DNA of 64,000 bases from Candidatus Doudnabacteria bacterium (GTDB taxonomy: Bacteria; Patescibacteriota; Doudnabacteria; UBA920), in assembly GCA_963837465.1 (NCBI GenBank), contig CAWINB010000004.1, positions 793,078 through 857,077 on the forward strand, read 5' to 3'. Made by a program: the position numbers and the translations under genes. Within the stretch, counting starts at the first letter, position 1, and the number at the start of each line of letters is the position of its first letter. The notes beneath the pieces were generated by a model. That model made no database searches. It was not told the DNA's origin and saw nothing but the letters and a program-made list of their open reading frames with translations. Shown here piece after piece: positions 1,566-38,085 of the stretch.

Positions 1566-2522
1566 ATGACTCTAAAATCACAAAAAATAATCTGCTGCTT
1601 ACTTATTGCCCTGGTGGTGGTCGGGGGCTTTGAGGCGCTGATTTATATTTTAAATTTAAACCAGCCCGCTATCTATTTACAGACGGCTTTTTGGATTTTT
1701 GCCTATCTGGTTTTTGAAATAGTTTTTTTGCATGATCTGCACGTTAAAACTTCCGGCCATTTAAGCCGCGCGCGCTTAGAACACGCCCGGGTTAAGCAAA
1801 AACCGCTCCGCTTTATAAAAGTTTTGGGCTCGGCTTTTTACGGTCGTTTTCATCATTTGCGGAAATGGGGTTATATAAAACAATGGCTGGGCTTTTTGCT
1901 GCTGCCGAGTTTTATTTTTTGGTCCACTATTTCCCTGTTTTACGTTAACTTTGGCGATGTAAAAGTCCAGCAGCTTTTGGCCCTGTTTTCCAGCCTGGCT
2001 TTGATTCTGGACTATTGGTTTTTAAAGGAAGCGTTCCTCCGCGGCAGGGAAGTGGCGGACAATGATATTTTTGTGGTCCTGTCCATGATAAAAATTTACG
2101 CCGCGGCCATGCTCTACGCCGCGGCCTTATCCATTTTGCGCTACTATTGTTTAAACCCCTGGTATTTTACCGCCGAGGTTTTTTGTTTTACCTTCCTGCT
2201 TGTTTACCAGGCGCTTTACCACCATCGCCGCGCCGGCATAAAAAATATTTCCGTGGCCCTGGGCATTGCCGCCATAATGGCCGCGGCCGGGTTTATGGTC
2301 TACATTTGGTGGGGTTATAATTATTTCACGGCGGCCGTGTTTTTGGCCGCGCTTTATAATTTAATGTGGGGAGTTTTCCATTACCGCCTGGATAAGGCCC
2401 TGACCTGGCACGCTTTTTGGGAAATTTTACTGGTCAGCATTATTGTTTCCGGTATGGTTTTCAGCGTCACCAACTTTAAGGCCAGGATTTCGGACGAATG
2501 CCAGTATTATCTTGACTTTTGA
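1566..2522 (+). CDS. Polytopic integral membrane protein, function unknown
   Basis: 318-aa ORF with ~9 hydrophobic helices; no recognisable catalytic motif. Confidence 0.55.
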   Translation: MTLKSQKIICCLLIALVVVGGFEALIYILNLNQPAIYLQTAFWIFAYLVFEIVFLHDLHVKTSGHLSRARLEHARVKQKPLRFIKVLGSAFYGRFHHLRKWGYIKQWLGFLLLPSFIFWSTISLFYVNFGDVKVQQLLALFSSLALILDYWFLKEAFLRGREVADNDIFVVLSMIKIYAAAMLYAAALSILRYYCLNPWYFTAEVFCFTFLLVYQALYHHRRAGIKNISVALGIAAIMAAAGFMVYIWWGYNYFTAAVFLAALYNLMWGVFHYRLDKALTWHAFWEILLVSIIVSGMVFSVTNFKARISDECQYYLDF

Positions 2523-2550
2523 TTTTAGTACGGCCACGTTTTAGCCTAAA

Positions 2551-2585
2551 CAAGGGCGCCCCTTTGCTGCAAAGGGGCGCCCTTG
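2551..2585. terminator. GC-rich hairpin between convergent genes (bidirectional terminator)
   Basis: caagggcgcccctttgctgcaaaggggcgcccttg, perfect stem. Confidence 0.55.
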
Positions 2586-2611
2586 CGCGCGGCTGATGCC
2601 TAAAAACCTAT

Positions 2612-3688
2612 TTAAAACCAGTACAAAAACGCCACCACAATAATCGAAATTCCCAGCATCACCAGGTTGTTGGTTTTTTTATCCAGGGAGCCGAGTTTGT
2701 TTTCCAGAATTTTTTTGGCGTCAGAAAGCATTAGCGCCAAAAGCAGGGCGCCGCAAATTAAAATCAGGTAGCGGTTGGCTTGGTAATTGTCAAAAGCGCT
2801 TTCGTCCTCCGCGCCAACTACTGCCGAAGCCGAAGAAGTTTGGCTTGCCTGAGCCGGCGTTTGTTCGGCCGAGCCCGCGGCTTGGGTTGATAAAGCGAAA
2901 TTTTGCTCCTGGTTTGGGGCCGCCTGGCTTGATAATCCGCCGCGAATCGGAATGGGTAGGGCGGTGATAGTTTGGGATGCCTGGCCGATTGCCGGCTGCG
3001 GTATGCCTGAAGCTTGAACTTGGCTGGCTTGTAACGGTTGTGGCGAAGCAGCGTGAGCGGCTGCCGCGGCCGCGACATGGGACGGAAGTTTTTGGGCCGG
3101 TGGTTTAGACGCCGAGGCGACCAGAGCAGCCGGGACTTTAAGCTGAGCTATAGGCGCCAGCGTGCCAAAGGTATTGGTAATGGCGGAATAATATTGTCCC
3201 TGCGCCACATTGCCAAAGGTTAAGCCCATGCCCTGGTCCACAAAACCCGCGTTTAAAATATTGGCGCGATGTTCCGGGCTGTTCATCCAGGCATTTATTA
3301 AACTGTCGGTATCGTAAAACTCAATGGCCAGGTTTTCTCCCAATCGCAAATACGGAGTGTAGCCGTCGGCAACTATGGTATCCCAGATATAGTGCCCTCC
3401 CGGGTCCACATGCGAAAAATAATGGCGGGCTTGCATATCATCGCTCTTGGTCTGCGCGGCTTTAGTCAGTATAGCGTTGGTGTTTAAAGTGGTTAAATCT
3501 CTTAACTGTCTTTGGTTGTTAATGGCTTCCAGGATATTTAGGGTAGTTAAATCCGAAGCCTGAGTGGCATGATTTGGTAAAAATAAGGTGATTAAAACTT
3601 TAACAGCCAAAAAAACTACAACCAAAAGCCCAAAAAGTTTGGTTTTAAAAAAATGATAGTGGATCCTAAAACTGTAGTTTTCGTTCAT
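2612..3688 (-). CDS. Membrane-anchored CAP/SCP (YkwD-like) domain protein with Ala/Gln/Pro/Ser-rich linker
   Basis: HYFSHVDPGGH...NAWMNSPEHRANILN CAP-domain motifs; N-terminal TM helix; low-complexity AQASQ region. Confidence 0.7.
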   Translation of the reverse strand: MNENYSFRIHYHFFKTKLFGLLVVVFLAVKVLITLFLPNHATQASDLTTLNILEAINNQRQLRDLTTLNTNAILTKAAQTKSDDMQARHYFSHVDPGGHYIWDTIVADGYTPYLRLGENLAIEFYDTDSLINAWMNSPEHRANILNAGFVDQGMGLTFGNVAQGQYYSAITNTFGTLAPIAQLKVPAALVASASKPPAQKLPSHVAAAAAAHAASPQPLQASQVQASGIPQPAIGQASQTITALPIPIRGGLSSQAAPNQEQNFALSTQAAGSAEQTPAQASQTSSASAVVGAEDESAFDNYQANRYLILICGALLLALMLSDAKKILENKLGSLDKKTNNLVMLGISIIVVAFLYWF

Positions 3689-3731
3689 ATTTTGCCTATT
3701 AACAAGCCTATATTAACATCTTTTGTTTAAC

Positions 3732-3760
3732 TTGACAAATAGTGATTTATATGATACAAT
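3732..3760 (+). promoter_or_regulatory. Sigma70-like promoter TTGACA-17nt-TACAAT
   Basis: Near-consensus boxes ~45 nt upstream of the sortase start. Confidence 0.5.
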
Positions 3761-3805
3761 CTTAAGTTAATGTTTTTTTAAATTCACTGGTTTAGTATAA
3801 CCACA

Positions 3806-5134
3806 ATGGACCAATCTAAAACAATTAAATACCCTGTCGCGACTCCGGAAGTTGAAAAAATGCTGGGGTTAAACAAGTTAGCCAACCAAAAATCGGACGA
3901 TGACAGTAACGACAATGTCACTTCCGCCAAAACCGGCGCTATGCCGGCTAATTTGCCGGTGGCCAATGCCTCTCCTGCCGCCGCTCCATCGGTCGCCGAA
4001 CCTGCCGATCCCGTCACCGTCCAGCAACAGCAAAATTCCACTGCCACCGCGCGGTCAAAGGCTGTAAATATTATAAAAATAGTTTTGCCTTACGCGGCCA
4101 TTTTTATTGTCGGCATATTTTTGTATTACTTTTTTTTCAGCGCCGTTAATTTTAACGTCAGCGGTATAATCAAAAGCGCGGCCCCCGGCGTGACCGCGCC
4201 CCAACAAACCGCCATCCAACAACTGGAAAGCCAAAATTTGGCCGCTTACAATGCCTGGGTTTCGGGTTTTTATTATGATGTTACCGACCCTAAAGTCCTG
4301 GATCCCAATACCGATAATTCCGGCAACGGCCTGACCAATTTTGAAAAATATCTTTTGGATTTAAACCCCAAAAGTTACGATACTTTAGGCTTGGGAATGT
4401 CCGACAGCCAGGCAATTTCCGACGGCATAAATCCTTTAACCGGCCAGCCTTTGACTCAAGCTCAAACCGCTATTATCTCCAAATATATAGACATGGAGGC
4501 CGTGATGAACCGCCTGGCTTTATACAATATGCAAAACCCGGGGATGGTGGCCGGAGCCAGCATTAACTCTTCCGGCAACAGTACCGGCAACGGCAGCGGT
4601 TCGCAAAATAGCGGCGTGGTTGTGGCGCAAACCTCGGCGGTTTCTTTAGCCCCCTCCAGTTTGGCGCGAAATACTTCCAACGTTAACACCAGTATTCCCG
4701 GCCTGTTGGAAATTCCGGATTTAAAAATCAGCGTGCCCATTGTTTGGACCCAGGATCCCAGCGACTTTGACCAGGACCTGCAGGTCGGCGTAGTCCACTA
4801 TCCCGGCACCGCCATGCCCGGCCAAATCGGCACCACCTACATTGCCGGCCACAGCAGCAACTACGTTTGGGCCAAAGGAAGCTACAACCATATATTTACA
4901 CATTTAGATGATTTGCCCAATGACGCGTCTTTCCAAATTACCGTAACCAACACCAGCGGGCAAAAAGTTATTTACCATTATGTAGCCACAAGTCGCCAGC
5001 AATATTCGCCCACCGACCAGGCCCAATTCGCCAACACCGGCAAATCCATAGTCGCCCTCTCCACCTGCTGGCCGGTCGGCTCTACCGCCAAACGTTTGGT
5101 GATATTTGGCACATTAACTCAAGTGGAAAAATAG
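3806..5134 (+). CDS. Sortase-family transpeptidase, membrane anchored
   Basis: C-terminal domain HYPGTAMPGQIGTTYIAGHSSN...ALSTCWP...AKRLVIFG gives the His/Cys/Arg sortase triad (AGH, TC, R); TM helix near aa 85-115. Confidence 0.75.
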   Translation: MDQSKTIKYPVATPEVEKMLGLNKLANQKSDDDSNDNVTSAKTGAMPANLPVANASPAAAPSVAEPADPVTVQQQQNSTATARSKAVNIIKIVLPYAAIFIVGIFLYYFFFSAVNFNVSGIIKSAAPGVTAPQQTAIQQLESQNLAAYNAWVSGFYYDVTDPKVLDPNTDNSGNGLTNFEKYLLDLNPKSYDTLGLGMSDSQAISDGINPLTGQPLTQAQTAIISKYIDMEAVMNRLALYNMQNPGMVAGASINSSGNSTGNGSGSQNSGVVVAQTSAVSLAPSSLARNTSNVNTSIPGLLEIPDLKISVPIVWTQDPSDFDQDLQVGVVHYPGTAMPGQIGTTYIAGHSSNYVWAKGSYNHIFTHLDDLPNDASFQITVTNTSGQKVIYHYVATSRQQYSPTDQAQFANTGKSIVALSTCWPVGSTAKRLVIFGTLTQVEK

Positions 5135-5251
5135 TTCGCCGCAGCTTTTAATGTTTTTTTCAGACTCACCTATAACAATGCTACAATAAACTATAAAATA
5201 AGGACAATAAATACTTTTGCCTTTATTTATGAGAGTAAAATTGAGAGTTAC

Positions 5252-5280
5252 TTGACAAATCTCAATAAATAGGTTAATCT
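5252..5280 (+). promoter_or_regulatory. Candidate promoter TTGACA-17nt-TAATCT for the large surface protein gene
   Basis: -35 consensus; weaker -10. Confidence 0.4.
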
Positions 5281-5317
5281 GACAAGTTATTTAGGTTATT
5301 AAATCTCCACTACCATT

Positions 5318-8300
5318 ATGAATAAACTCACCTTCACCAAAAGCGGAAAATATTTATCATTTTTCAATTTCAGGATCGGTACTGTTATGGTGGCGATTTT
5401 GGCTATTTCCGTTGTTGGAATTATAGCGCCCCGCAAAGTTGATACTACAAAAGCTGAGGATTGCGCCGATGTTGAGCAAATTCCTACTGTGCCGACATTT
5501 GATCCATTTACCATTGTACCCCAGAATAGCGACGGCTCCTATACAAATACGGCGGGTTCCAATTGTGATGATTTCCCCGAACTGTCGGTTAAGGAATCCA
5601 CCACAGATAGCTATTTTCCTTCCATAAATGCCCAAAGCGGCGACCAGCTTGTTGTGAGCACTTACATCCACAACGGAGCCAGCCAGGATTTAGGCACCCA
5701 GGACGAGGCTTTTAATATCCAGGCTAATTATAATGTTGATACTACTTCCGGTACCAGCCACAACATAACTGTAACGTTAACAGGACAGAATATCAACGGG
5801 AGCCAGATGCAGCCAAAGTCGGAAACGATTACCATAAATACTCCGGCCGGCGCGCAGATTCAGGTAGTTCCGGGCACGGGAGTAATTGAAGATAATAATT
5901 CCAACCCGACCGGTTCGGCCGCGGTAAGCAATGGAAATTTTACGGTTAATTTGGGCAACCAAATGGCTTGTTTTGATTTCGCCCGTTTCTTTAACTTTAC
6001 GGTGCAGGTTGTGGGCGGACAGGCGGCCTCAACCCCTCCCACTGGTACCATTTCCGCTAATTTGGGCGGACAGGTTGGCGGACAGTGTCTTTTGAACGCT
6101 ACCGTTAACTGGTCCACGCAGAATGCCGGCCAGGTTTTGGTAACTGTCAGCAATCCCAATTTAAATTCCAATAATTATTACGACAACGACACAATTTTTT
6201 CCGAAAATCCCCAGGGACCGGCCAACGCTTCCTGGATAACGCCCAATACCAGCTATCGTTTTACTTTATGGGCTGTTGTGCCCAGCGGTACTTCCGGATC
6301 CGCCCAACAGACATTTTTTGTCAGCGGCGGCAGCACCCAAAGTTTTAATGTCATTGAACTTTATGAAACCTGGATTACCGGCGGATCTTTAAACTGCGGA
6401 ACCACTCCTCCTCCGCCCGCCAATACGCCGCAAAGTTTTAGTGTATCTATAACTCCCGGTACGGTTTGTGTCGGCTCGCAATCCAACGTTGTTATTTCCA
6501 ACGCCACCTCAGGCTTAAACGGCGATGAAATTTTCTGGACCTCCACTTTAAACGGCAATACTACCGGCGAAAATATGTCTGGATACGGCCAGTATGTAAC
6601 CAACGGCGGCTTTAACGCCTCAACAAATGCCTGGACCAGCAGTGAAATTGGCACTTGGGTTAAGACCGCGACTATTGGCGGCGTTTCCGTAAGCGCTCCC
6701 GCTTTTGTTGTCCAAAATTGTTCCCAACCCACCCCGCCCGTCCCCCAGAGCTTTAATTTGTCCATAACCTCCGCTTGCGTTAACCAACAGTCTACTGTGA
6801 ATATTTCCAACGCCACCTCAGGCTTAAATGGCGATGAAATTTTCTGGACATCTAGCTTAAACGGCAATCCTACAGGTGAAAATTTGTCCGGGTATAACCA
6901 ATATGTAACCAACGGCGGCTTTAACGGTCCTACCAGCACCTGGACCGCGGCGGAAGCCGGATCGTGGACTAAAATCGCGACCATTGGCAATACCACGGAA
7001 ACCGCTTACTTTAATGTTTATCCTTTAAGCGACACGGCTGATTGCGGCGGCGGGCAGGCGCAAACTTTTACTGCCACAGCCTCGGCCTCCGCCACAGCCT
7101 CGGCCAGTTGTTCCAACGGAACTTCCGCCTCCGCCACAGCTTCCGCCTCTGCTACAGCCACCAGTTCCATTAGCCAGCAGGACGCGCAAAACAAAGCCCA
7201 GGCTAATGCTCAGTCGCAAGCCCAGGCTAATGCTCAGGCTAATGCCAGCGCCTCTTGTCCGGCTTCATCTCCGGCGCAGTTAACTTGCAGCGCCAATCAG
7301 ACTTCTGTTCCCTTAGGCAGCCCCGCAACCTTTAATGCTTCCGGCGGCACCGCTCCTTACACCTGGACCGCGGCCGGCGGTGATTCCGCTACCGGCAATC
7401 CTTTTATTGTTAACTTTGCTTCCGCCGGCAGCAAAACTGTCAGCGTCAGCGATAGTAGAGGAGTAGCAACTACTTGCGGCGTGACTGTCACGTCCTCAAA
7501 CGTCTGTACCGTAAACAGCAACTATGCTTTAAACTCTTCAGCTCCGGTTAAAAACGGCTCTACTTATTCGGTCGCTCTGAATTGGTCTTCCACCGGCAGC
7601 AATCAAATCAAACTCACCGAAGTAAATGGCTCCGGGGAAACCACTTTAACCACCGGTTCCGGCAGCGGCAGCTTTACGGTTACCGGACTTGCCCCGGGCA
7701 CCAGCTATATCTTTAAAATTTATGATGCTTCGTGCGGCAACTTCTTAACATCCGCCCAAGTTACCATACCTGCCAACCCGGGCCAGCTAAGCTGCGGCGC
7801 CAACGTCTCTTCCGCCAATATTGGCGACACAGTTATTTTTACCGCCCAGGGCGGCAACGGAGTTTACACCTGGGCTACCAGCAACAACAGCGATGCCGGT
7901 AACGGCAGCCAGCTTAACGTTAACTTCCAGTCCGCCGGCAACAAGAGCGTAACTTTAAGCGACAGCGCCGGAGACGCGCCGGCTACTTGCGGCGTGGTGA
8001 TTGCCGCTCCTGCCCAAACCCAAAGCACTGGTAACTGCGACAACGATTCCAGTTCCTGTAACAACAATACTAACACCAATAACGATACCAGCTCCGGCAC
8101 CAACAGCTCCAACCAGAATAACAACAACAATGTCAACGGCAACAACAACACCATTACCAACAGCAACGAGAATTGCGTTAATAATTCCTGCGATACTACC
8201 AACACCACCAACAACGTTGTCTATATAAACAGCGCCGGCAGCGTTGTTCCGGCCAATCAGTTCAGCCAGCTCTCTGTAACCAAAATGGTTAGCGCAAACG

Positions 8301-9178
8301 GCACCGGGTTTCAAAACAGTGTCAGCGTCAACAACGGCCAGACTGTAGAGTTTCAGGTCACCGTAACCAATACCGGCGGCGGTACTGCCGATGATGTAAC
8401 TTTATCCGATAATATGCCGAGCGGCTTAAGTTTGATCTACAATAGCGTAACTTTAAGCGGCAGCAATAATTACGGCAGCAACAATCTTGCCAGCGGCTTA
8501 TACCTGGGTAATTTGTCCCAGGGGCAATCCGTTGTGGTTGATTACCAGGCCACAGTTAACAACTACGGGCAATCCAGCATCCAAAATACTGCCACCGCTT
8601 CTTCCAACAACGCGGGCAGTGTACAGGCCAGCGCCTGGGTGTTTGTAAACGGCAGCTCGGGCACGGTACAGGGAGGCAACGTCAATTTGACTTACAGCAA
8701 ATCCGCTTTTAACAACACCAAAAACGCGGATGCTACGACCATCGCGGCTTCTGCCAACGACTCTATCACTTACACTTTAACCGTTTCCAACAGCGGCAAC
8801 GTCCCGGCCAGCAGCTTTATTATTACCGATGACCTGTCGCAGGTACTGCCTTACGCCACCATTACCGATAACGGCGGCGGCAGTTTAAGCGGTAATACAA
8901 TTTCTTTTCCCGGTATAACCGTCCCTGCCGGAGGCAGCGTGACCCGCAGTTTCAAGGTCAGCGTAAAAAGTTCACTGGCCAGCAACCTTAGTTACGTAAT
9001 GAGCAATAGTTACGGCAATACGGTTACCATAAGAATCAACACCCCCCAAGTATTGGGCGCTTTTACCGCCCCGACCACCGGAGCCAACACCAACGCTTTT
9101 ACTTTTGCCGGTTTATTGACAGCCGGAGCCGCGGTGTTTAAAAAGAGAAAGGGTATAACTCAGCTGATTTTCGGTTAA
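5318..9178 (+). CDS. 1286-aa repetitive cell-surface protein with a sorting-signal-like C-terminus
   Basis: N-terminal TM/signal; two ~100-aa near-identical repeats (SGLNGDEIFWTS...YVTNGGFN); Cys-bracketed Ig-like repeats with a GG..YTW motif; poly-Ala/Ser/Thr and poly-Asn tracts; two DUF11-like repeats (VTVTNTGGG..A..V.L.D); tail ...FTAPTTGANTNAFTFAGLLTAGAAVFKKRKG. Confidence 0.8.
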   Translation: MNKLTFTKSGKYLSFFNFRIGTVMVAILAISVVGIIAPRKVDTTKAEDCADVEQIPTVPTFDPFTIVPQNSDGSYTNTAGSNCDDFPELSVKESTTDSYFPSINAQSGDQLVVSTYIHNGASQDLGTQDEAFNIQANYNVDTTSGTSHNITVTLTGQNINGSQMQPKSETITINTPAGAQIQVVPGTGVIEDNNSNPTGSAAVSNGNFTVNLGNQMACFDFARFFNFTVQVVGGQAASTPPTGTISANLGGQVGGQCLLNATVNWSTQNAGQVLVTVSNPNLNSNNYYDNDTIFSENPQGPANASWITPNTSYRFTLWAVVPSGTSGSAQQTFFVSGGSTQSFNVIELYETWITGGSLNCGTTPPPPANTPQSFSVSITPGTVCVGSQSNVVISNATSGLNGDEIFWTSTLNGNTTGENMSGYGQYVTNGGFNASTNAWTSSEIGTWVKTATIGGVSVSAPAFVVQNCSQPTPPVPQSFNLSITSACVNQQSTVNISNATSGLNGDEIFWTSSLNGNPTGENLSGYNQYVTNGGFNGPTSTWTAAEAGSWTKIATIGNTTETAYFNVYPLSDTADCGGGQAQTFTATASASATASASCSNGTSASATASASATATSSISQQDAQNKAQANAQSQAQANAQANASASCPASSPAQLTCSANQTSVPLGSPATFNASGGTAPYTWTAAGGDSATGNPFIVNFASAGSKTVSVSDSRGVATTCGVTVTSSNVCTVNSNYALNSSAPVKNGSTYSVALNWSSTGSNQIKLTEVNGSGETTLTTGSGSGSFTVTGLAPGTSYIFKIYDASCGNFLTSAQVTIPANPGQLSCGANVSSANIGDTVIFTAQGGNGVYTWATSNNSDAGNGSQLNVNFQSAGNKSVTLSDSAGDAPATCGVVIAAPAQTQSTGNCDNDSSSCNNNTNTNNDTSSGTNSSNQNNNNNVNGNNNTITNSNENCVNNSCDTTNTTNNVVYINSAGSVVPANQFSQLSVTKMVSANGTGFQNSVSVNNGQTVEFQVTVTNTGGGTADDVTLSDNMPSGLSLIYNSVTLSGSNNYGSNNLASGLYLGNLSQGQSVVVDYQATVNNYGQSSIQNTATASSNNAGSVQASAWVFVNGSSGTVQGGNVNLTYSKSAFNNTKNADATTIAASANDSITYTLTVSNSGNVPASSFIITDDLSQVLPYATITDNGGGSLSGNTISFPGITVPAGGSVTRSFKVSVKSSLASNLSYVMSNSYGNTVTIRINTPQVLGAFTAPTTGANTNAFTFAGLLTAGAAVFKKRKGITQLIFG

Positions 9179-9191
9179 ATACTCAAATCAA

Positions 9192-9221
9192 CAAAAGGGC
9201 GGCCAAAGGCCGCCCTTTTGT
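9192..9221 (+). terminator. Rho-independent terminator
   Basis: aaaagggcggcc-aaa-ggccgcccttttg followed by T-rich run. Confidence 0.7.
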
Positions 9222-9361
9222 GTATAACTTTTACTTGCAATACTTTTTTAAAGTGCTATGATATAAAAAATCGGTGGTTAGACAAGTTTTAATAAAACAA
9301 AAATAAACAGCCAGAGCGCTGTTTTATTTTTTATCTTTTTAGGACTAATACGCCCACAGCT

Positions 9362-9489
9362 GTCCCATCCCGGATTTTTTAGGGCTCTAAAAATATCCCG
9401 GATCCGGGACAAAGAGTATTCCGGGTTATGCCTTAATCTTGATCCCGGATATTTTCCAGATAAAGCCCTGAAAAATTCCGGGATGGGAC
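9362..9489. repeat. P2 composite hairpin element (CATCCCGGA...TCCGGGATG arms around an internal TCCCGGATCCGGGA palindrome)
   Basis: 25-nt arms gtcccatcccggattttttagggct / agccctgaaaaattccgggatgggac; related copies at 49212 and 54535. Confidence 0.5.
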
Positions 9490-9528
9490 ACTCCGCGGCA
9501 GCTATTTTCACAGTAACTTTCATCCGCT

Positions 9529-10710
9529 ATGGACAATTTTTATCTTTTGGAACTTATCAACGAAGCCAATACCCGCGGCGGGGGATTGGTTTTAAATTTG
9601 GAAACCCAGCCGGCGGCCGTGGTTTTAACAATTAATAAATACAATGAACTAATGCAAAATCAAGCAACATCAGCCAACGATATGCCGACGGATGAATTGT
9701 CCGACCCTGGACCACAAAAACCTTCCGGTCCAAAACAAAAAATTTTAGTCACCGGCGGTGCTGGCTATATTGGTTCGCATTGCGCCGGTGAACTTTTAAA
9801 GTCCGGATACGAGGTTGTGGTTTTGGACAATCTTTCATGCGGCAAAGAGCGTAATGTGCCCAGGGGCGCCAGGTTTGTGGAAGGGGACTTGGCGGATTTG
9901 GGATTGCTTAGGGATTTATTCGCGGGGGAAAATTTTTTCGCGGTTATGCATTTGGCCGCCAGCATAGAGGTGGAAGAATCGGTAAGTCAGCCGGAAAAGT
10001 ATTTTAAAAACAACGCTTTGAATACCGCGGGACTGCTTTCTGTGATGGCGGAGTACGGCGTCCGCAATATCATCTTTTCTTCCACTTGCGCGGTTTACGG
10101 CGAGCAGGTCAAACTGCCAATTAACGAGCAGTCTAAAGTCGGCCCCATAAATCCTTACGGCTGTTCCAAACTTTTGGCCGAAAGGATCATTAAATATTAC
10201 TGCCAATTTTTGGCATTAAATGCCGTAGTCTTTCGCTACTTCAACGCCTGCGGTTGCGGTTTTGACGGCGATGTGGAACCTACCCATTCCACGCATTTGT
10301 TGTCTCAGGTTTTAAAAGTCGCCGCCGGGGAAAAAGCTTCCATCAGCGTATTCGGCAACGACTACGGGACTTTTGACGGCACGTGTATTCGCGACTATGT
10401 CCACGTTTTGGATATTGCCGCGGCGCACGTGGCGGCGTTGCAAAAAATCGATCCGGAAAAATCGGCTTATGAAGTCTATAACATCGGCGCCGGCAAAGGC
10501 AGCAGCGTGCTGGAAATAATCAGTAAAACCGCGGAAGTCCTAAATAAAATTATCCCTATGGAAACCGCGCCCCGCCGCCCGGGCGACGCCCCCGAACTGG
10601 TGGCCGACAACACCAAACTGAAAAATCAACTAGGCTACCATCTAAAGTACAGCGACCTGGAAACCATCATCACCACCAGCTGGAAACAAACGCAGAATTA
10701 TAGTTCTTAA
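9529..10710 (+). CDS. galE: UDP-glucose 4-epimerase (GalE) with a ~60-aa N-terminal Phd/YefM-like extension
   Basis: KILVTGGAGYIGSH Rossmann motif, YxxxK, and the GalE C-terminal half; N-terminus LLELINEANTRGGGLVLNLETQPAAVVLTINKYNELMQ resembles Phd/YefM antitoxins. Confidence 0.8.
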   Translation: MDNFYLLELINEANTRGGGLVLNLETQPAAVVLTINKYNELMQNQATSANDMPTDELSDPGPQKPSGPKQKILVTGGAGYIGSHCAGELLKSGYEVVVLDNLSCGKERNVPRGARFVEGDLADLGLLRDLFAGENFFAVMHLAASIEVEESVSQPEKYFKNNALNTAGLLSVMAEYGVRNIIFSSTCAVYGEQVKLPINEQSKVGPINPYGCSKLLAERIIKYYCQFLALNAVVFRYFNACGCGFDGDVEPTHSTHLLSQVLKVAAGEKASISVFGNDYGTFDGTCIRDYVHVLDIAAAHVAALQKIDPEKSAYEVYNIGAGKGSSVLEIISKTAEVLNKIIPMETAPRRPGDAPELVADNTKLKNQLGYHLKYSDLETIITTSWKQTQNYSS

Positions 10711-11781: not shown

Positions 11782-13647
11782 ATGCGTTCAAAATCAAAAA
11801 ATTTCCCTTTTTCCGTTATCGGCCTGATTTTTTTATTTGGCGCGGTTTTTTCCCCGTTTTCACCGGTTTTCGCAGCGCCGGTCGTTTATGCTGATAGCCA
11901 GCCGGAGCTTTTTACGGTAAAGCTTAAAAGTTCCGGCGACTTCGGTCGGTTGCTGGCTGTCGGCGGCAGCATCCATCACTTATTTTTGGGCGATAATAAT
12001 CCCAGATTTGAAAATATTTACGATTTTACTTCGGGTTATTCTTTGGGTGTCCTGGAAAAAGATTTGCAAAACACTTTTGTTTATTTACAGGCCGAGCAAA
12101 CAACCGAGGCCGCGGGAATAGTGGTGGATGACCCCGGCTTTACCACAAATCCTTTGGATGTAGACAAGCAGTGGGGTTTAATTAAAACCGGCTTTGACCA
12201 GGCCTGGGAAAAAACCACGGGTTCGCAAAGCAATATCGTAGCCATTATAGATACCGGTATTGACGCCACGCACCAGGATTTGCAGGCTATAAATTATGTG
12301 CAGGGTTATGATTTTGTCAACCAAAAACCCATAGCGCCGGGCACGAACTCAGACGACAACGGCCACGGCACTTTGGTTACCGGTGTTTTAGCCGCCACGG
12401 CCAATAACGGGCTTGGCATAGTCGGTACGAATTGGCATATATCGATTATGCCCATAAAAGCCCTGGATTCTTCCGGACAGGGAGACGCCGGCACGCTGGC
12501 TCAGGCTATTGTTTGGGCCACGGACCACGGGGCGCAGTTTATAAATTTAAGTGTCGGCGGCGTGGGTTTTGGCCAGGATGCAACTTTATCCAATGCCATC
12601 TCTTACGCTTTTAATAAAAATGTGGTCATTGTGGCCGCGGCCGGCAACGATACCAACGCCGCGGGGCAAAGCCTGGACGAAAACCCCATCTTCCCGATTT
12701 GCGATGACAACAATTACAATATGGTTATAGGTGTGGCGGCCACTGACGTGAACAATCAGAAAGCCGACTTTTCCAATTACGGCCGCAATTGCATAGATGT
12801 GGACGCGCCGGGCAAGCGTATTCTTTCCACCATCAGTATTGATCCTGTTACAAAAAAACCGACGCCAAATTCCTACGCCTACGCTTCAGGCACTTCGCTG
12901 TCCGTGCCTTTTGTGGTCGGGCAGGCCGCGCTTATAAAGACCCTTTATCCTTCCGCCACCAACATCCAGATTCGGGACCGGATTATCGCCACGGCCGATT
13001 CAATAGACAGCCTAAATCCCACCCAATGCGGCGGCGGTTCCTGCGCCGGACTTTTGGGTGCCGGCGAAATAGACGTGCCCGCCAGTTTAAACCAGCCGAT
13101 TTCCCAAATTTTTTCCGAGGGCGACCTGGTAAAAGTCAGCGACGAGAACGGCGCCATTTACCAGATTTCTGGCGGTCAAAAACGCCTGGTTTCGCCTTTC
13201 GTTTTCAATCAGCGCTTTAGCGACTCCCCGCTAAAAACCGCTACTTCCGCCCAGCTGGCCGATTACCCGGAAGGCGCTTACGTTACGCCGCTTGACGGTA
13301 CTTTGGTTAAGTTTAACCAAAGTCCGGCGGTTTATATTATGGAGGAGGGCCAAAAATCGCCAATAACTTACCAGGTTTTTACGCAGAGAAATTTAAATTT
13401 TTCCAGTGTCAGCACTCTCAGTTCCCCGGAACTTAATTCCTGGACAACCGGTAATTTTTTTCCGCCGCTTGACGGTACTTTGGTCCGCGGGCAGAAAAAC
13501 CCAACGGTTTACTGGGTGGTGGACCAGGCCTTGCATCCTGTGGACAGAGCTTTTTATCTTAACAGGGGCCTGAATATTTTTCCGTTTATGCTGGTGCCTG
13601 ACACGGACATTTCCAGCTACTCTCAGGGCCAGGCTTATATCAGCTAA
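11782..13647 (+). CDS. Secreted subtilisin-like S8 serine protease with a C-terminal repeat module
   Basis: Signal peptide; catalytic triad in AIIDTGID / NGHGTLV / SGTSLSVPFVVG; C-terminal ~220 aa carries DGTLV..AVY repeats shared with the next gene. Confidence 0.85.
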   Translation: MRSKSKNFPFSVIGLIFLFGAVFSPFSPVFAAPVVYADSQPELFTVKLKSSGDFGRLLAVGGSIHHLFLGDNNPRFENIYDFTSGYSLGVLEKDLQNTFVYLQAEQTTEAAGIVVDDPGFTTNPLDVDKQWGLIKTGFDQAWEKTTGSQSNIVAIIDTGIDATHQDLQAINYVQGYDFVNQKPIAPGTNSDDNGHGTLVTGVLAATANNGLGIVGTNWHISIMPIKALDSSGQGDAGTLAQAIVWATDHGAQFINLSVGGVGFGQDATLSNAISYAFNKNVVIVAAAGNDTNAAGQSLDENPIFPICDDNNYNMVIGVAATDVNNQKADFSNYGRNCIDVDAPGKRILSTISIDPVTKKPTPNSYAYASGTSLSVPFVVGQAALIKTLYPSATNIQIRDRIIATADSIDSLNPTQCGGGSCAGLLGAGEIDVPASLNQPISQIFSEGDLVKVSDENGAIYQISGGQKRLVSPFVFNQRFSDSPLKTATSAQLADYPEGAYVTPLDGTLVKFNQSPAVYIMEEGQKSPITYQVFTQRNLNFSSVSTLSSPELNSWTTGNFFPPLDGTLVRGQKNPTVYWVVDQALHPVDRAFYLNRGLNIFPFMLVPDTDISSYSQGQAYIS

Positions 13648-13673: not shown

Positions 13674-15539
13674 ATGCTCCTTTCCCGGATAAAAAAAATA
13701 ATTGCCTGCGCGTTGCTGCTGAGTTATCCGTCCGTAGTCTTTGCCCAGGCTGTGGATCCCAACGCCGTGGATCCGGCTTTTAACCCCAGCCTGCTCATTT
13801 CCGACAGCGCGTTTTCCGATACCCAGACTTTTGGCGGCGCGGCCGGCATCCAGCAGTTTTTGGAAATCAAAGGTTCGCCTTTGGCAAACACCAGCGTCGG
13901 TTTTTTGGCCGAGCTTAAGGAACCAAACGCGATTTTGCTTAAGGAAGGACTGGACGATCCCGAACCGAATCTGCCGCAGCTTCGCACAGCCGCGCAATTA
14001 ATTTGGGACGCTTCACAAAGCAGCGGGCTTAATCCTCAAGTGATTTTGGTAACCATGGAAAAAGAGCAGAGTTTGATAGACGGGCAGTTTTCCTCGGCCG
14101 GTGATTTGCAAACGGCTCTGGACCACGCTATGGGTTTTGGCTGTCCCGACTCCACGGGTTGCGATGATTTATTTCCGGGTTTTTACTACCAGCTGTTTGG
14201 CAATTATGATTCCAGCGGCAACCGTTATTTGGGAGCGGCCAAAAGCCTTATGAAGTCTTTTAGCACGCCGGGAGGACGGGGACCGGACATCAACGGCCAG
14301 GCTGCCGTTACCGGCCAGACTGTGGATATCCAAAATAGTTTGGGAGGTTTCGACAATATTGCCGCTGACCAGCTTGTCCGGCTGGGCGATAACGCCACGG
14401 CCGCGCTTTACCGCTATACGCCCCATGTTTTTAACGGCAATTATAATTTTTGGAAATTTTTTACTTTGTGGTTTAAATACCAAAACGGCACACTGGTGGC
14501 GTTATCGGGCGACCCCAATACTTATGTTATAGAAGACGGAGGCAAACAATTGGTGCCTGCTTTTGTGGCCCAGGCGCGCGGTTTGAATTTGGCTTCTAAA
14601 ACTACCATTTCTCCCACGGAATTTGCGGATTATCCCACCGGCCAGATTTACACTCCGGCCGATAATACCGTCATCCAAACCCCGGACGGACAAACTTACG
14701 TCTTTGTAAACGGCCAAAAACATCCGGCTTCGGCCTTTGTAATCAGCCAGCGCGGTTTGGGCACATCCACTCCTCTTAGCGCTTCGGCCGCCGATGCCTC
14801 TTTGTTCCCCACATCTTCGGTCCTGCCGCCCAAAGACGGCACGGTAATCCGCGGTAAAACCGAGCCGGCTGTGTATTTGGTCAGGAACGGACAGATTGAA
14901 ATTTACACCGCTTACACTTTTGCCCAAAATAAAATCAAGTCCGGGCAGATTGTGATTGTGCCGGACAATGAGATAAGCGCCTACACTCAAAATGGTCTTG
15001 TTCCGCCGCGGGACGGCAGTTTAGTCAGGACGGCGGACAACGCCACGGTTTACCTGGTCCAGGACGGCACCAGGCACGCGGTGATTTCCGATGTCTTTAA
15101 AAACCAGGGCTACAGTTACAATAATGTCGGGACTATTTCCGATCCCCAAATTAACGCCCTGCCGGTGGGCGCTTATGCCCAGCCAAAAGACTACACTTTC
15201 TTCGCGGTTGATTCCAAAACCGGTCCGCTCTATGAATTTAAAAATGGCGTGACCCACTCAATCTCGTCTTTCGTGGCCAAGCAAAGAGGGATAACGCCGG
15301 ATTACGTCTTTAGTAACGCCGTGTTCGTGGAGTGGTTCGGCGGCATTCCGGTTCCGCCCAGGGACGGGACATTGCTTAAAGGTGATGCCAGCGCCGCCGT
15401 TTACCTGGTCAAAAACGGCCAGCTAAACCCGCTCACTGCCGCGCAATTCGCCGCCGGCCGCTACAGCGCCAAAAAAATCGTAACCCTGCCCCAAGCCGAA
15501 ATAAACTCCTACCCCACGCCGAACTCGGTGACACAGTAG
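13674..15539 (+). CDS. Secreted protein built from at least 5 copies of a ~60-aa repeat (P-[KR]-DG-[TS]-L-[VI]-[KR]...AVYLV.NGQ...)
   Basis: Signal peptide MLLSRIKKIIACALLLSYPSVVFAQA; repeats seen directly in the translation. Confidence 0.7.
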   Translation: MLLSRIKKIIACALLLSYPSVVFAQAVDPNAVDPAFNPSLLISDSAFSDTQTFGGAAGIQQFLEIKGSPLANTSVGFLAELKEPNAILLKEGLDDPEPNLPQLRTAAQLIWDASQSSGLNPQVILVTMEKEQSLIDGQFSSAGDLQTALDHAMGFGCPDSTGCDDLFPGFYYQLFGNYDSSGNRYLGAAKSLMKSFSTPGGRGPDINGQAAVTGQTVDIQNSLGGFDNIAADQLVRLGDNATAALYRYTPHVFNGNYNFWKFFTLWFKYQNGTLVALSGDPNTYVIEDGGKQLVPAFVAQARGLNLASKTTISPTEFADYPTGQIYTPADNTVIQTPDGQTYVFVNGQKHPASAFVISQRGLGTSTPLSASAADASLFPTSSVLPPKDGTVIRGKTEPAVYLVRNGQIEIYTAYTFAQNKIKSGQIVIVPDNEISAYTQNGLVPPRDGSLVRTADNATVYLVQDGTRHAVISDVFKNQGYSYNNVGTISDPQINALPVGAYAQPKDYTFFAVDSKTGPLYEFKNGVTHSISSFVAKQRGITPDYVFSNAVFVEWFGGIPVPPRDGTLLKGDASAAVYLVKNGQLNPLTAAQFAAGRYSAKKIVTLPQAEINSYPTPNSVTQ

Positions 15540-37673: not shown

Positions 37674-37680
37674 ATGCTCC

Positions 37681-38085
37681 GGGCAAACTCATAAGCCGAA
37701 TTCTGTTTCTCTCCGCCTTCGCGTAAAGCTATGCGGATCAGCGCCGTAAAATAAATTACAGTTGCTGAATAATCATCTATCTAGCCCCGCCATTGCTGGC
37801 GGGATCGAGCAGCCTACCTAATTTGGCCTTGCACTCAAGTAAGGATTTAGCCGTTTCACCCTTCGGCTTCGCTCAGAGCCTCGCGGCCCCGGGTTTATAT
37901 GAAGGTTGATCCAAATTTTGGATCCCCGCGCCTTTCGGCGGCAGGCGTCACTGTTCGCACCTCGCGGATTACTCCGGACGGGGATTACCCGCTACCAATT
38001 TTGATAACTCTTAAGAGGTTATCAAACAAGTGTTCGGACTTTCCTACCCTTAAAATAAATTAAGGATCGATTATTCGGTTTGCCC
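37681..38085 (-). ncRNA. rnpB: RNase P RNA (bacterial type A)
   Basis: Reverse complement contains GGAAAGTCCGAACAC, GGTAGGCTGCTCGA, CTAGATAGATGA and ACAGAATTCGGCTTAT; P1 pairing GGGCAAAC/GTTTGCCC; no ORFs on either strand. Confidence 0.85.

What the first reader, a model, noticed from the sequence alone, without database searches (positions are those of the whole stretch)
3806..9178. Sortase plus 1286-aa repetitive surface protein with a non-canonical sorting-signal-like tail
The sortase-fold protein (AGH ... TC ... R triad) lies directly upstream of a giant Ser/Thr/Asn/Gly-rich protein. That protein has two ~100-aa near-identical repeats, Cys-bracketed Ig-like repeats, DUF11-like repeats and low-complexity tracts. 

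Its tail is ...FTAPTTGANTNAFTFAGLLTAGAAVFKKRKG, the classic tripartite sorting-signal layout: motif, then hydrophobic helix, then basic tail. The pentapeptide would be (T)APTTG rather than LPXTG or LAXTG. 

Both genes have near-consensus TTGACA promoters, which suggests strong, independent expression. This may be a lineage-specific sortase-substrate recognition motif.
Basis: partly seen in the sequence, partly recalled or inferred. Interest (0 to 1): 0.6.

Follow-up and report, generated by a model that had tools for sequence, protein, structure and literature searches.

The report
Sortase with APxTG-anchored giant adhesin
A tiny uncultured (CPR/Doudnabacteria-type) bacterium encodes a divergent sortase next to a giant surface adhesin whose wall-anchoring signal reads A-P-x-T-G instead of the classic L-P-x-T-G; the variant is conserved across dozens of related species and so far matches only what protein engineers have built artificially.

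Summary
ORF 3806-5134 is a sortase: Pfam PF04203 E=2.4e-20, with invariant His349/Cys421/Arg430. ORF 5318-9178 is a 1286-aa Sec-exported, repeat-rich adhesin-like protein with two C-terminal CLIPPER/DUF11 stalk domains. It ends in APTTG, 19 hydrophobic residues, then KKRK.

In 78 related loci plus metagenomic homologs, 64 distinct orthologous tails all carry PxTG. Ala precedes it in 60 of 64 (APKTG 53, APTTG 3). The gene lies next to the sortase wherever contigs are complete and the sortase is at least about 43% identical. Distant homologs of the same terminal domain end in canonical LPxTG, so this is a lineage-specific L-to-A switch.

The sortase fits none of the curated classes A-F. By fold it is nearest class C. 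It has a distinctive beta6/beta7 loop (DQAQF) and a TSP3-like ectodomain.

Overstated claims: the repeats are 67% identical, not near-identical, and only the sortase promoter is near-consensus.

The held literature mentions APxTG only for engineered S. aureus SrtA, and annotation pipelines already tag orthologs as LPXTG-anchored. Verdict: a new variant of a known kind, of moderate interest. Cleavage, the acceptor and other substrates in the genome remain untested.

The parts
3732..3760 (+). Promoter-like site upstream of the sortase gene: TTGACA, 17 nt, TACAAT, with an extended TG
   Evidence: 11/12 match, the best in 2500-9700; sequence read. This is a consensus match only, and CPR promoter rules are unknown.
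3806..5134 (+). Sortase gene (442 aa), from a divergent unclassified clade typical of Doudnabacteria/Patescibacteria
   Evidence: There are 424 homologs, and the named ones are annotated Candidatus Doudnabacteria or Patescibacteria.
4058..4138 (+). N-terminal membrane anchor helix of the sortase (residues 85-111). About 85 cytoplasmic residues precede it, with a conserved KKYPxxTxEVAKMLG start.
   Evidence: AF2 helix 85-111; hydrophobic sequence; conserved N-terminus in alignments A1 and A2.
4208..4540 (+). Conserved helical ectodomain of the sortase (residues 135-245). Its core, 4286-4447, is related to bacterial TSP3 Ca-binding repeats.
   Evidence: pLDDT above 90. Invariant DNSGNGLxNFxKYLLxLNPK. 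The full domain occurs only in sortase-sized proteins, while the core matches tandem repeats in giant proteins that Pfam calls TSP3_bac. There is no direct Pfam hit on the sortase itself.
4649..4663 (+). Decayed copy (APSSL) of the sorting motif that about a third of orthologous sortases carry intact in the disordered tether
   Evidence: 34 of 106 against 0.77 expected. The tether has pLDDT below 50.
4694..5131 (+). Sortase catalytic beta-barrel domain (residues 297-442). H349 is at 4850-4852, C421 at 5066-5068 and R430 at 5093-5095.
   Evidence: Pfam; invariant columns; AF2 pLDDT above 90; Foldseek top hits are class C and class A sortases at E 4e-12 to 1e-9.
5015..5029 (+). beta6/beta7 loop DQAQF, the candidate determinant of Ala-at-position-1 specificity
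   Evidence: D404 and Q407 are invariant and F408 is at least 90% conserved. The loop reads D(P/S)x(I/L)F in distant Patescibacteria sortases, two of which sit next to LPATG or SPRTG proteins. In SaSrtA this loop was mutated to obtain APxTG specificity (PMC9126251). This is inference.
5135..5317 (+). Intergenic region: TTGACA at 5252-5257 without a good -10 hexamer, a weaker promoter-like site at 5159-5187, and no terminator
5318..9178 (+). Substrate gene: a 1286-aa Ser/Thr/Asn/Gly-rich fibrillar-adhesin-like surface protein
   Evidence: Orthologs lie downstream of the sortase in related loci.
5318..5458 (+). N-terminal Sec-type signal peptide or anchor (basic n-region, hydrophobic core, then APRK...TKA)
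   Evidence: Sequence; the same layout occurs in orthologs. SecA, SecD and SecF are encoded in the window. The cleavage site was not predicted with a dedicated tool.
6413..7012 (+). Two tandem ~95-aa repeats (residues 366-461 and 471-565), 66.7% identical
7265..8011 (+). Two Cys-bracketed ~78-aa repeats (residues 650-727 and 819-898, 45.5% identical) flanking an fn3-like segment (residues 744-804)
   Evidence: Pfam BiPBP_C and fn3 hits are below their cutoffs. Cys positions are listed.
8270..9043 (+). Two CLIPPER-type (DUF11 and DUF7507) stalk domains, ending in the highly conserved NTYGNTVTIRIN strand
   Evidence: Pfam and NCBIfam. TIGR04226 isopeptide-domain hits occur on orthologs. CLIPPER is a CnaA-like isopeptide stalk domain of fibrillar adhesins (bioRxiv 10.1101/2025.04.25.650565).
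9068..9082 (+). Sorting pentapeptide A-P-T-T-G (family consensus A-P-K-T-G), with predicted cleavage between T1254 and G1255
9083..9175 (+). Rest of the sorting signal: 19-residue hydrophobic segment (9083-9139), KKRK (9140-9151) and a conserved short C-terminal extension GITQLIFG (9152-9175)
9305..9324 (.). Bidirectional terminator-like hairpin downstream of the substrate gene

Best explanation
This is a two-gene cell-surface display module of a Doudnabacteria-type (Patescibacteria/CPR) bacterium.

1. The 1286-aa protein is exported through Sec by its N-terminal signal. It folds into a variable head, repeat modules and two CLIPPER-type stalk domains.
2. It is held transiently in the membrane by its C-terminal hydrophobic segment and KKRK stop-transfer tail.
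3. The membrane-anchored sortase encoded just upstream recognises the pentapeptide A-P-x-T-G (here APTTG). Cys421 cleaves between Thr1254 and Gly1255, assisted by His349 and Arg430.
4. The sortase transfers the Thr carboxyl to an amine of a cell-wall precursor, most likely lipid II. The adhesin then stands covalently on the wall.

The Ala-for-Leu change is a fixed, co-inherited property of this sortase clade and its substrates. It probably reflects a remodelled beta6/beta7 loop (DQAQF).

Shown: gene identities, catalytic residues, motif conservation, adjacency, and the presence of Sec and Mur genes. Inferred: cleavage at T|G, pairing of this enzyme with this substrate, the acceptor, and the loop as the specificity determinant.
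For: - Sortase domain and invariant H/C/R triad. The AF2 model of the catalytic domain is confident, and its best Foldseek matches are all sortases.
- Tripartite tail. The LPXTG_anchor HMM aligns P-x-T-G at 15.3 bits for the window. APKTG orthologs score 17.8-20.4 bits, above the 15.9 cutoff, always starting at profile position 3 and so skipping the Leu column.
- 64 distinct orthologous tails: APKTG 53, APTTG 3, APQTG 2, APRTG 1, APPTG 1, PPKTG 2, PPETG 1, LPNTG 1. Information content peaks on A-P-x-T-G (3.9-4.3 bits) against 1.2-2.5 bits in the hydrophobic segment.
- 60 of 60 tails with the terminal-domain signature have PxTG.
- Conserved synteny of CAP(-)/sortase/adhesin/epimerase across species.
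- In 1.43 Mb of related loci, xPxTG tails begin with A 44 times, L twice, P twice and S once.
- More distant homologs of the same terminal domain end in LPNTG or LPDTG. A distant sortase in L081 sits next to an LPATG protein and has a different beta6/beta7 loop.
- MurG, a Mur ligase, MurB, SecA, SecD and SecF are in the same window.
- Engineering work shows that the SaSrtA beta6/beta7 loop controls position-1 specificity, including APxTG (PMC9126251).
Against: - There is no biochemical evidence of cleavage or wall linkage.
- The window's own tail scores just below the curated LPXTG_anchor cutoff (15.3 against 15.9).
- Only 64 kb of an 868-kb contig was visible. Other sortases or other APxTG or LPxTG proteins in this genome cannot be excluded, so the enzyme-substrate pairing rests on adjacency and co-conservation.
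- In the most divergent sortase sub-clade (36-42% identity) the adjacent gene is not an adhesin.
- CPR envelope structure is poorly known (PMC5220378), so the acceptor is uncertain.
- The loop comparison rests on three out-group sequences.
Confidence: 0.72

Rival explanations
1. The tail is only a C-terminal transmembrane anchor. The protein stays membrane-tethered and is never cleaved, and the APxTG-like string is structural, for example a turn before the helix.
For: The window tail is just below the LPXTG_anchor cutoff. An unusual conserved 8-residue extension (LIFT or LIFG) follows the basic residues. No cleavage data exist.
Against: A, P, T and G are the most conserved positions of the whole tail, while the helix itself drifts. 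The x position varies as in true sorting signals. The gene is persistently adjacent to a sortase with an intact active site. Orthologs pass the curated anchor model. Homologous terminal domains elsewhere carry canonical LPxTG at the same spot.
Confidence: 0.08
2. The signal is a genuine sorting signal, but it is processed by a different (housekeeping) sortase encoded elsewhere. The adjacent enzyme then has another job, for example processing itself or another protein.
For: Only 64 kb of the genome is visible. Some related genomes have a second, shorter sortase (L074 and L077). In the most divergent clade the sortase is not next to an adhesin.
Against: Adjacency is kept across dozens of species. 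About a third of these sortases carry a copy of exactly this motif, flanks included, in their own tether, which ties this enzyme family to APxTG. The second sortases found share the same DQEQF loop.
Confidence: 0.1
3. The enzyme is a class C-like pilin polymerase that joins copies of the giant protein into a fibre rather than anchoring it to the wall.
For: The best sequence and fold matches in the PDB are class C sortases. TIGR04226 ('isopeptide-forming domain-containing fimbrial protein') hits the orthologs' last domain. The consensus tether motif aligns, at low confidence, to the class C lid DPF.
Against: The class C NCBIfam score is 41 bits against a cutoff of 160. Class A hits are nearly as good. 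There is no [YFW]PK[NDGST] pilin motif in 40 full-length substrates and no conserved Lys in the N-terminal 380 residues. Each locus has a single substrate gene, with no minor pilins. AF2 gives no docked lid.
Confidence: 0.05
4. Sortase-type transpeptidation occurs, but onto a non-peptidoglycan acceptor such as a secondary cell-wall glycan, an S-layer component or a lipid amine.
For: The pair is embedded in a glycan-assembly cluster: RmlD, a nucleotidyl transferase, an epimerase, GT2, a flippase, GT4 and Wzy_C. The CPR envelope is poorly understood.
Against: Lipid II genes are present in the window. All characterised sortases use peptide amine nucleophiles (established knowledge). Synteny with glycan genes may simply reflect a surface-biogenesis neighbourhood.
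Confidence: 0.05

Closest known systems
Class A/housekeeping sortase with LPXTG cell-wall sorting signal (S. aureus SrtA paradigm)
   Same: Membrane-anchored Cys transpeptidase fold with a His-Cys-Arg triad. The substrate has an N-terminal signal peptide and a C-terminal pentapeptide, hydrophobic segment and basic tail. P, T and G of the motif are retained.
   Different: Position 1 is Ala, not Leu. The enzyme gives no NCBIfam class A hit and is 20-22% identical to SrtA structures. It has a long N-terminus (85 cytoplasmic residues plus a TSP3-like helical ectodomain). It sits next to its substrate, and the sorting signal has an extra conserved C-terminal extension.
Class E sortase / LAXTG signals of Actinobacteria
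   Same: A lineage-wide single-residue variant of LPXTG, co-evolved with a dedicated sortase class.
   Different: The substitution there is at position 2 (Pro to Ala). Here Pro is invariant and position 1 changes. The class E HMM scores 41.5 bits against a cutoff of 160.
Position-1 variants: C. difficile SrtB (S/P)PXTG and the Ruminococcus NPXTG anchor (NCBIfam NF033846)
   Same: Natural signals in which only the first residue departs from Leu. Rare PPKTG and PPETG variants occur in this family too.
   Different: Ala at position 1 is not among the described natural variants that I could find. The Rumino_NPXTG model scores only 12.6-14.3 bits on orthologs, against a cutoff of 23.5. The C. difficile comparison is from memory and was not tested here.
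Class C pilin sortases with a lid pseudo-substrate
   Same: These are the closest solved folds (2w1k, 2xwg; E about 1e-11). There is a sequence element N-terminal to the catalytic domain that resembles a substrate.
   Different: There is no DP(W/F/Y) lid, and the tether element is disordered in AF2. The substrate has no pilin motif, and there is a single giant substrate.
Engineered APxTG-specific SaSrtA variants (F40, F1-21, cW11)
   Same: They recognise the same motif (APKTG, APATG), obtained by remodelling the beta6/beta7 loop. The natural family also has a distinctive, invariant beta6/beta7 loop.
   Different: They are laboratory-evolved from SrtA and have reduced activity. The enzyme here is a natural, phylogenetically remote sortase whose specificity is only inferred.
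CLIPPER (DUF11)-stalk fibrillar adhesins
   Same: Signal peptide, variable head, tandem repeats, CLIPPER and CLIPPER_2 stalk domains next to the anchor, and a sorting domain.
   Different: Only two CLIPPER-type domains. The remaining repeats are unclassified. The isopeptide triad was not verified. The host is a CPR bacterium.

Membership tests
Sortase superfamily (Pfam PF04203) | HMM match above the gathering cutoff | tested here: met
   73 bits against 26.6, E=2.4e-20, residues 301-437.
Sortase superfamily (Pfam PF04203) | Catalytic His, Cys (TLxTC-like) and Arg | tested here: met
   H349, C421 (LSTCWP) and R430 are invariant in 106 homologs.
Sortase superfamily (Pfam PF04203) | Eight-stranded beta-barrel sortase fold | tested here: met
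   AF2 pLDDT is above 90 for residues 290-442. The top 50 Foldseek PDB hits are all sortases, E 4e-12 to 1e-9.
Sortase classes A-F (NCBIfam NF033745-NF033748, NF058671, TIGR01076) | Score above the curated class cutoff | tested here: not met
   Class D 42, E 41.5, C 41.3 and F 19.7 bits, against cutoffs of 140-166. TIGR01076 scores 36.7 against 39.35. No class A or B hit was listed.
Class C (pilin) sortase | Lid with DP(W/F/Y) occupying the active site, and a substrate with a YPKN-type pilin motif | tested here: not met
   The tether is disordered in two AF2 models. No pilin motif or conserved N-terminal Lys was found in 40 substrates.
Class E sortase | Substrates carry LAXTG (Ala at position 2) | tested here: not met
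   Pro at position 2 is present in all 64 tails, though the selection regex required it. The independent support is that 60 of 60 tails picked only by the terminal-domain signature have PxTG. Ala is at position 1.
LPXTG cell-wall sorting signal (TIGR01167) | HMM score above the cutoff | tested here: inconclusive
   The window tail scores 15.3 against a cutoff of 15.9. Six APKTG/PPKTG orthologs score 17.8-20.4 and pass.
LPXTG cell-wall sorting signal (TIGR01167) | Tripartite layout: pentapeptide, about 20 hydrophobic residues, then a basic tail at the C-terminus | tested here: met
   APTTG, 19 hydrophobic residues, then KKRK and 8 further residues.
LPXTG cell-wall sorting signal (TIGR01167) | Leu at motif position 1 | tested here: not met
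   Ala in 60 of 64 distinct tails, Pro in 3 and Leu in 1.
LPXTG cell-wall sorting signal (TIGR01167) | Cleavage between T and G, with amide linkage to peptidoglycan | not testable with these tools
   This needs biochemistry or mass spectrometry.
CLIPPER / DUF11 (PF01345) fibrillar-adhesin stalk | HMM match above the cutoff | tested here: met
   59.6 bits against 24.6, two stretches. DUF7507/CLIPPER_2 scores 28.7 against 27. TIGR01451 scores 55.1 against 24.
CLIPPER / DUF11 (PF01345) fibrillar-adhesin stalk | Intramolecular Lys-Asn isopeptide with a catalytic Asp | tested here: inconclusive
   Candidate residues are visible by eye: LSVTK989, SD1031 and QN1090TA in the first domain, and TYSK1128, TDD1171-1172 and YGN1234T in the second. 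The phmmer search of the PDB found no CLIPPER structure to align to. Some CLIPPER domains lack the bond.
Bacterial TSP3 repeat (PF18884), for the sortase ectodomain | HMM match on the protein itself | tested here: inconclusive
   There is no Pfam hit at E<=0.1 on the sortase. However, phmmer with residues 125-255 hits multi-repeat proteins at E 1e-28 to 1e-8, and three of those tested are TSP3_bac by Pfam at E about 1e-92.

The most novel reading that the evidence does not exclude
This is a natural sortase clade with intrinsic A-P-x-T-G specificity, and it also uses that motif on itself. In about a third of members the flexible tether between the TSP3-like ectodomain and the catalytic domain carries a faithful copy of the substrate signal, (T/V)APxTGA(N/D). 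The enzyme would therefore be self-processed or trans-processed at T|G, or auto-inhibited by a tethered pseudo-substrate. Self-processing would release a soluble catalytic domain with an N-terminal Gly and leave or anchor the N-terminal part. That would be a regulatory principle not described for sortases. It would also provide a ready-made orthogonal enzyme for APxTG sortagging, for example at histone H3 APATG.
Probability: 0.15. Interest if true: 0.7.

Novelty: new variant of a known kind. Interest (0 to 1): 0.45.

Why it matters
- **An undescribed natural motif.** If the enzyme truly prefers APxTG, it adds a natural position-1 variant, and an unclassified sortase clade, to the catalogue of sorting signals. 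It would do so in the CPR/Patescibacteria, where surface proteins are thought to mediate attachment to host cells but are almost uncharacterised.
- **Annotation.** Pipelines keyed on LPXTG will miss or under-score such substrates. The window protein falls 0.6 bits below the curated cutoff.
- **A possible reagent.** APxTG recognition has so far been obtained only by directed evolution of S. aureus SrtA, with activity costs, to label proteins such as histone H3 (APATG). A natural enzyme could be a better orthogonal ligase.
- **A handle on specificity.** The contrast between DQAQF and D-P-x-(I/L)-F in the beta6/beta7 loop gives a testable structural explanation for position-1 specificity.

Tried and rejected
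- **Other such tails in the window:** none found.
- **Same-genome paralogs.** I used the search for homologous proteins with the C-terminal 310 aa, looking for hits on the 868,218-bp contig. The index returned only 35 short or fragmentary homologs (<=533 aa) and none from that contig, so the question stays open.
- **Residue-level check of CLIPPER isopeptide residues against the PDB:** phmmer found no CLIPPER structure.
- **Class C-like lid.** HMMER placed the consensus 'vapatg' on the class C LDPFSE lid with low posterior support. AF2 leaves the tether disordered both in the window enzyme and in P0085, which has an intact YVAPKTG. A docked lid is rejected; a flexible pseudo-substrate or cleavage site is still possible.
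- **GINPLTG in the ectodomain as a second sorting-like motif:** rejected. It is the G-T-D-P signature of a TSP3-type repeat.
- **Pilin polymerisation:** no pilin motif or conserved Lys.
- **blastp self-comparison of the substrate:** it gave no off-diagonal hits, so the repeats were confirmed by direct local alignment against shuffles.
- **Literature searches** for APKTG, APXTG, sortase + Patescibacteria/CPR/Doudnabacteria/Parcubacteria, and non-canonical sorting motifs in metagenomes found no description of a natural APxTG system. The 2026 CPR pilus preprint concerns donor-strand-exchange Pam pili, which are unrelated.

Full report
**1. What is there**

The window (about 46-50% GC) carries two co-directional ORFs on the + strand at the stated coordinates: 3806-5134 (442 aa) and 5318-9178 (1286 aa).

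The first ORF is a sortase.
- Pfam PF04203 scores 73 bits (cutoff 26.6, E=2.4e-20) over residues 301-437.
- In an alignment of 106 homologs, His349 (AGHSS), Cys421 (LSTCWP) and Arg430 are invariant.
- An AlphaFold2 model built on that alignment is confident (pLDDT above 90) for the catalytic barrel (residues 290-442), for a membrane helix (85-111) and for a helical ectodomain (135-245). The 262-288 tether is disordered.

The second ORF has a basic/hydrophobic N-terminal signal and is rich in S, T, N and G (47.6% together). It contains:
- two tandem ~95-aa repeats, 66.7% identical, with alignment score 328 against a shuffle maximum of 68;
- two Cys-bracketed ~78-aa repeats, 45.5% identical, with score 170 against 65;
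- two low-complexity tracts;
- two C-terminal CLIPPER-type domains (DUF11 59.6 bits; DUF7507 28.7 bits; TIGR01451 55.1 bits).

It ends ...RINTPQVLGAFT-APTTG-ANTNAFTFAGLLTAGAAVF-KKRK-GITQLIFG. The curated LPXTG-anchor model TIGR01167 aligns residues 1252-1278 to profile positions 3-33. That places APTTG on the LPXTG columns, at 15.3 bits against a cutoff of 15.9. No other ORF in the 64-kb window has such a tail.

**2. Organism and context**

The sortase has 424 detectable homologs, and an identical protein lies on an 868,218-bp contig. Those that carry a name are annotated Candidatus Doudnabacteria or Patescibacteria. A scan of species-representative genomes returned 78 loci, almost all from Doudnabacteria/Patescibacteria MAGs.

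The pair sits in a surface-biogenesis neighbourhood. This includes RmlD, a nucleotidyl transferase, a polytopic membrane protein, a divergently transcribed CAP-domain protein, an epimerase, GT2, an S8 peptidase, a flippase, GT4, a Wzy_C protein and an S41 protease.

The same window encodes MurG, a Mur ligase and MurB, and also SecA, SecD and SecF. The export route and a lipid II acceptor are therefore plausibly available.

**3. Is the tail a real sorting signal, and is APxTG a lineage trait?**

The gene order CAP(-)/sortase/giant CLIPPER protein/epimerase recurs in related genomes. The neighbours' tails read ...VLGAFVAPKTGA(D/E)T...KKR....

Across all loci, complete ORFs with a motif, hydrophobic segment and basic tail lie essentially only downstream of the sortase. 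Most loci that lacked one are contigs truncated inside the giant gene.

I pooled the loci with 35 metagenomic homologs of the C-terminal 310 aa. This gave 64 distinct tails: APKTG 53, APTTG 3, APQTG 2, APRTG 1, APPTG 1, PPKTG 2, PPETG 1 and LPNTG 1.
- Information content is highest at A-P-x-T-G (3.9, 4.3, 3.4, 4.3 and 4.3 bits), against 1.2-2.5 bits along the hydrophobic segment.
- The spacing from the preceding conserved YGNT strand is fixed at 20 residues in 51 of 64 tails.
- My selection required PxTG, so I ran a control. Of 60 distinct tails chosen only by the terminal-domain signature, all 60 have PxTG. The Ala was never selected for.
- In 1.43 Mb of related DNA, xPxTG tails begin with A 44 times, L twice, P twice and S once.

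The most distant homologs of the same terminal domain end in canonical LPNTG or LPDTG (P0151, P0153, P0154). A distant Patescibacteria sortase (L081) lies next to an LPATG protein. The picture is a homologous anchor module in which Leu became Ala in one lineage and then stayed fixed together with its neighbouring sortase. APKTG orthologs pass the LPXTG_anchor cutoff (17.8-20.4 bits), always from profile position 3. JGI and NCBI already label some of them 'LPXTG-motif cell wall-anchored protein'.

**4. What kind of sortase?**

No curated class model is reached. Class D scores 42, E 41.5, C 41.3 and F 19.7 bits against cutoffs of 140-166, and there is no A or B hit.

A family profile finds PDB sortases only at E of 7e-8 or weaker, mostly class C with some class A. 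Foldseek ranks class C first (2w1k 4e-12; 2xwg), followed closely by C. diphtheriae SrtA, B. anthracis SrtA and streptococcal SrtA, at 20-28% identity.

The enzyme therefore belongs to an unclassified clade, with several peculiarities:
- **A long cytoplasmic N-terminus** of about 85 residues, with a conserved start.
- **A helical ectodomain.** Its full length occurs only in sortase-sized proteins. Its core (residues 161-214) is homologous to bacterial TSP3 Ca-binding repeats. The exhaustive search hit multi-repeat giant proteins, and three of them are TSP3_bac by Pfam at E about 1e-92.
- **An invariant beta6/beta7 loop D-Q-(A/E)-Q-F.** The three out-group Patescibacteria sortases read D-(P/S)-x-(I/L)-F instead. 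L081 and L082 lie next to LPATG and SPRTG proteins; L080's neighbour is unknown. In S. aureus SrtA this loop reads motif position 1 and is the region that was randomised to evolve APxTG-accepting variants (PMC9126251). That makes it the obvious candidate determinant, but this is inference.

**5. Mechanism proposed**

1. Sec export of the adhesin.
2. Retention by the C-terminal hydrophobic segment and KKRK.
3. Recognition of APTTG by the neighbouring membrane-anchored sortase.
4. Thioacyl formation at Thr1254 by Cys421.
5. Transfer to a wall-precursor amine.

The CLIPPER and CLIPPER_2 domains next to the anchor would form the stalk, as described for fibrillar adhesins (bioRxiv 10.1101/2025.04.25.650565). 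The variable head and repeats would project outward. Only C49, C83, G108, N119, C218, F219 and V231 are at least 90% conserved in the first 380 residues.

Gene identity, catalytic residues, motif conservation, adjacency and pathway partners are shown. Cleavage, pairing, the acceptor and the specificity determinant are inferred.

**6. Rivals**

- **A plain, uncleaved TM anchor.** This is disfavoured by the conservation profile, the sortase adjacency and the LPxTG-bearing distant homologs.
- **Processing by another sortase.** It cannot be excluded, because only 64 kb is visible and some relatives have a second short sortase (L074 and L077). It is disfavoured by the self-motif described below.
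- **Class C-type polymerisation.** It is not supported. There is no pilin motif in 40 substrates, no conserved Lys, a single substrate gene and no docked lid.
- **A non-peptidoglycan acceptor.** This is conceivable given the glycan-cluster context, but there is no positive evidence.

**7. Expression claim**

The sortase gene has a near-consensus promoter-like site: TTGACA, 17 nt, TACAAT with TG, 11/12, at 3732-3760. The substrate gene has TTGACA at 5252-5257 but no acceptable -10 hexamer, plus a 9/12 site at 5159-5187. No terminator lies between the genes, and a hairpin follows at 9305-9324. Co-transcription is as likely as independent expression, and sigma-70 rules for CPR bacteria are unverified.

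**8. An unexpected extra**

Thirty-four of the 106 homologous sortases carry [AS]PxTG at a fixed place in the disordered tether, 52-60 residues before HYPGT. Shuffled tethers predict 0.77.

The flanks, (T/V)-A-P-x-T-G-A-(N/D)-(L/I), mimic the substrate signal (V/I/T)-A-P-K-T-G-A-(D/E)-T. The window enzyme keeps only a decayed APSSL (4649-4663). AF2 does not dock the motif in P0085, where residues 254-319 have pLDDT below 50.

Whether this is a self-cleavage site, a trans-processing site or a flexible pseudo-substrate is unknown. It does tie this enzyme family to APxTG independently of gene adjacency.

**9. Novelty**

Full-text searches found APKTG and APXTG only as engineered SaSrtA specificities (F40, F1-21 and cW11 for histone H3 APATG). 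CPR papers note only that sortases are common (PMC6744442) or that 'sortase motifs' occur (PMC5220378). Nothing turned up for Doudnabacteria.

Natural position-1 variants exist elsewhere, for example the NPXTG anchor model in NCBIfam and (S/P)PXTG in C. difficile (from memory). This is therefore a new variant of a known kind, not a new kind.

Interest is moderate. It is a clean, testable case of enzyme-signal co-evolution in an understudied phylum, with a possible biotechnological use and an intriguing self-motif. The core biology is ordinary sortase anchoring, and annotation pipelines already half-recognise it.

Noticed in passing
window 4649-4663 (decayed copy); intact copies in homologs P0085, P0030, P0016, P0019 and others, and in loci L023, L035, L036, L039, L044: About a third of the orthologous sortases (34 of 106, against 0.77 expected by chance) carry a faithful copy of the substrate sorting motif, (T/V)APxTGA(N/D)(L/I). 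It sits at a fixed spot in the disordered tether, 52-60 residues before the catalytic HYPGT. AF2 leaves it undocked. It could be a self-cleavage site or a pseudo-substrate.
   Followed up: partly
window 4208-4540 (core 4286-4447): The sortase has a conserved, confidently modelled helical ectodomain. Its core, DPxxDNSGNGLxNFxKYLLxLNPK...GINPLTG, is homologous to bacterial TSP3 Ca-binding repeats found in tandem in giant proteins. The full domain occurs only in sortase-sized proteins. This raises the possibility of Ca2+ regulation.
   Followed up: partly
window 3806-4057: The sortase has an unusually long (~85 aa) predicted cytoplasmic N-terminus, mostly disordered. It begins with a conserved motif, KKYPxxTxEVAKMLG (short helix, residues 14-20), of unknown role.
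   Followed up: no
window 11782-13647 and 13674-15539: The S8 subtilase and the adjacent 621-aa protein, which has no Pfam hit, share a repeated ~60-aa C-terminal module (P(P)xDGTL(V/I)+...xxVY(L/W)V..G..). There are 3 or more copies in the first protein and about 6 in the second (BLASTP E=2e-21). The same module ends homologous proteins in many related loci. It may be a wall-binding repeat.
   Followed up: partly
window 2612-3688 (- strand): A CAP/SCP-domain secreted protein, with a low-complexity Ala/Gln/Ser-rich linker and a C-terminal TM helix, is transcribed divergently from the sortase. It is syntenic with the sortase in related genomes (L001, L002).
   Followed up: no
window 1566-2522: A 318-aa polytopic membrane protein with no Pfam hit is conserved just upstream of the CAP/sortase genes in many related loci. 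Its C-terminus, ...VTNFKARxLDGC.Y, is highly conserved.
   Followed up: no
L001/L007 11552-12913, also L024, L027, L033, L036, L039: In some relatives an extra 260-680-aa gene sits between the sortase and the giant adhesin. It encodes a protein with a Pro-rich segment, a Gly/Ala-rich TM helix near the C-terminus and no PxTG motif. It is absent from the window.
   Followed up: no
window 9529-10710: The UDP-glucose-4-epimerase-like protein has a ~70-aa N-terminal extension (residues 1-70) before the Rossmann domain. The gene is syntenic downstream of the adhesin in related loci.
   Followed up: no
window 37676-38086 (- strand): A bacterial RNase P class A RNA scores just above the Rfam gathering score (101.7 against 100 bits), consistent with a divergent CPR RNase P RNA. 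ARAGORN found no tRNA genes in the 64 kb.
   Followed up: no
window 29475-31241: A 588-aa ORF with no Pfam match at E<=0.001.
   Followed up: no
loci L046, L052, L053, L055-L062, L065-L067, L070, L076, L078: In the most divergent sortase sub-clade (31-42% identity, often with GINPWTG in the ectodomain) the gene after the sortase is not a CLIPPER adhesin. It is a small or mid-sized protein without a sorting signal, so the substrates of these enzymes lie elsewhere.
   Followed up: partly
record titles of loci L005-L070: Many of the MAGs that carry this Doudnabacteria-type sortase locus are titled 'uncultured Candidatus Saccharibacteria bacterium' (the binchicken/SRP co-assembly series). Given their 45-57% identity to Doudnabacteria proteins and identical synteny, this is probably a bulk taxonomic mislabel.
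   Followed up: no
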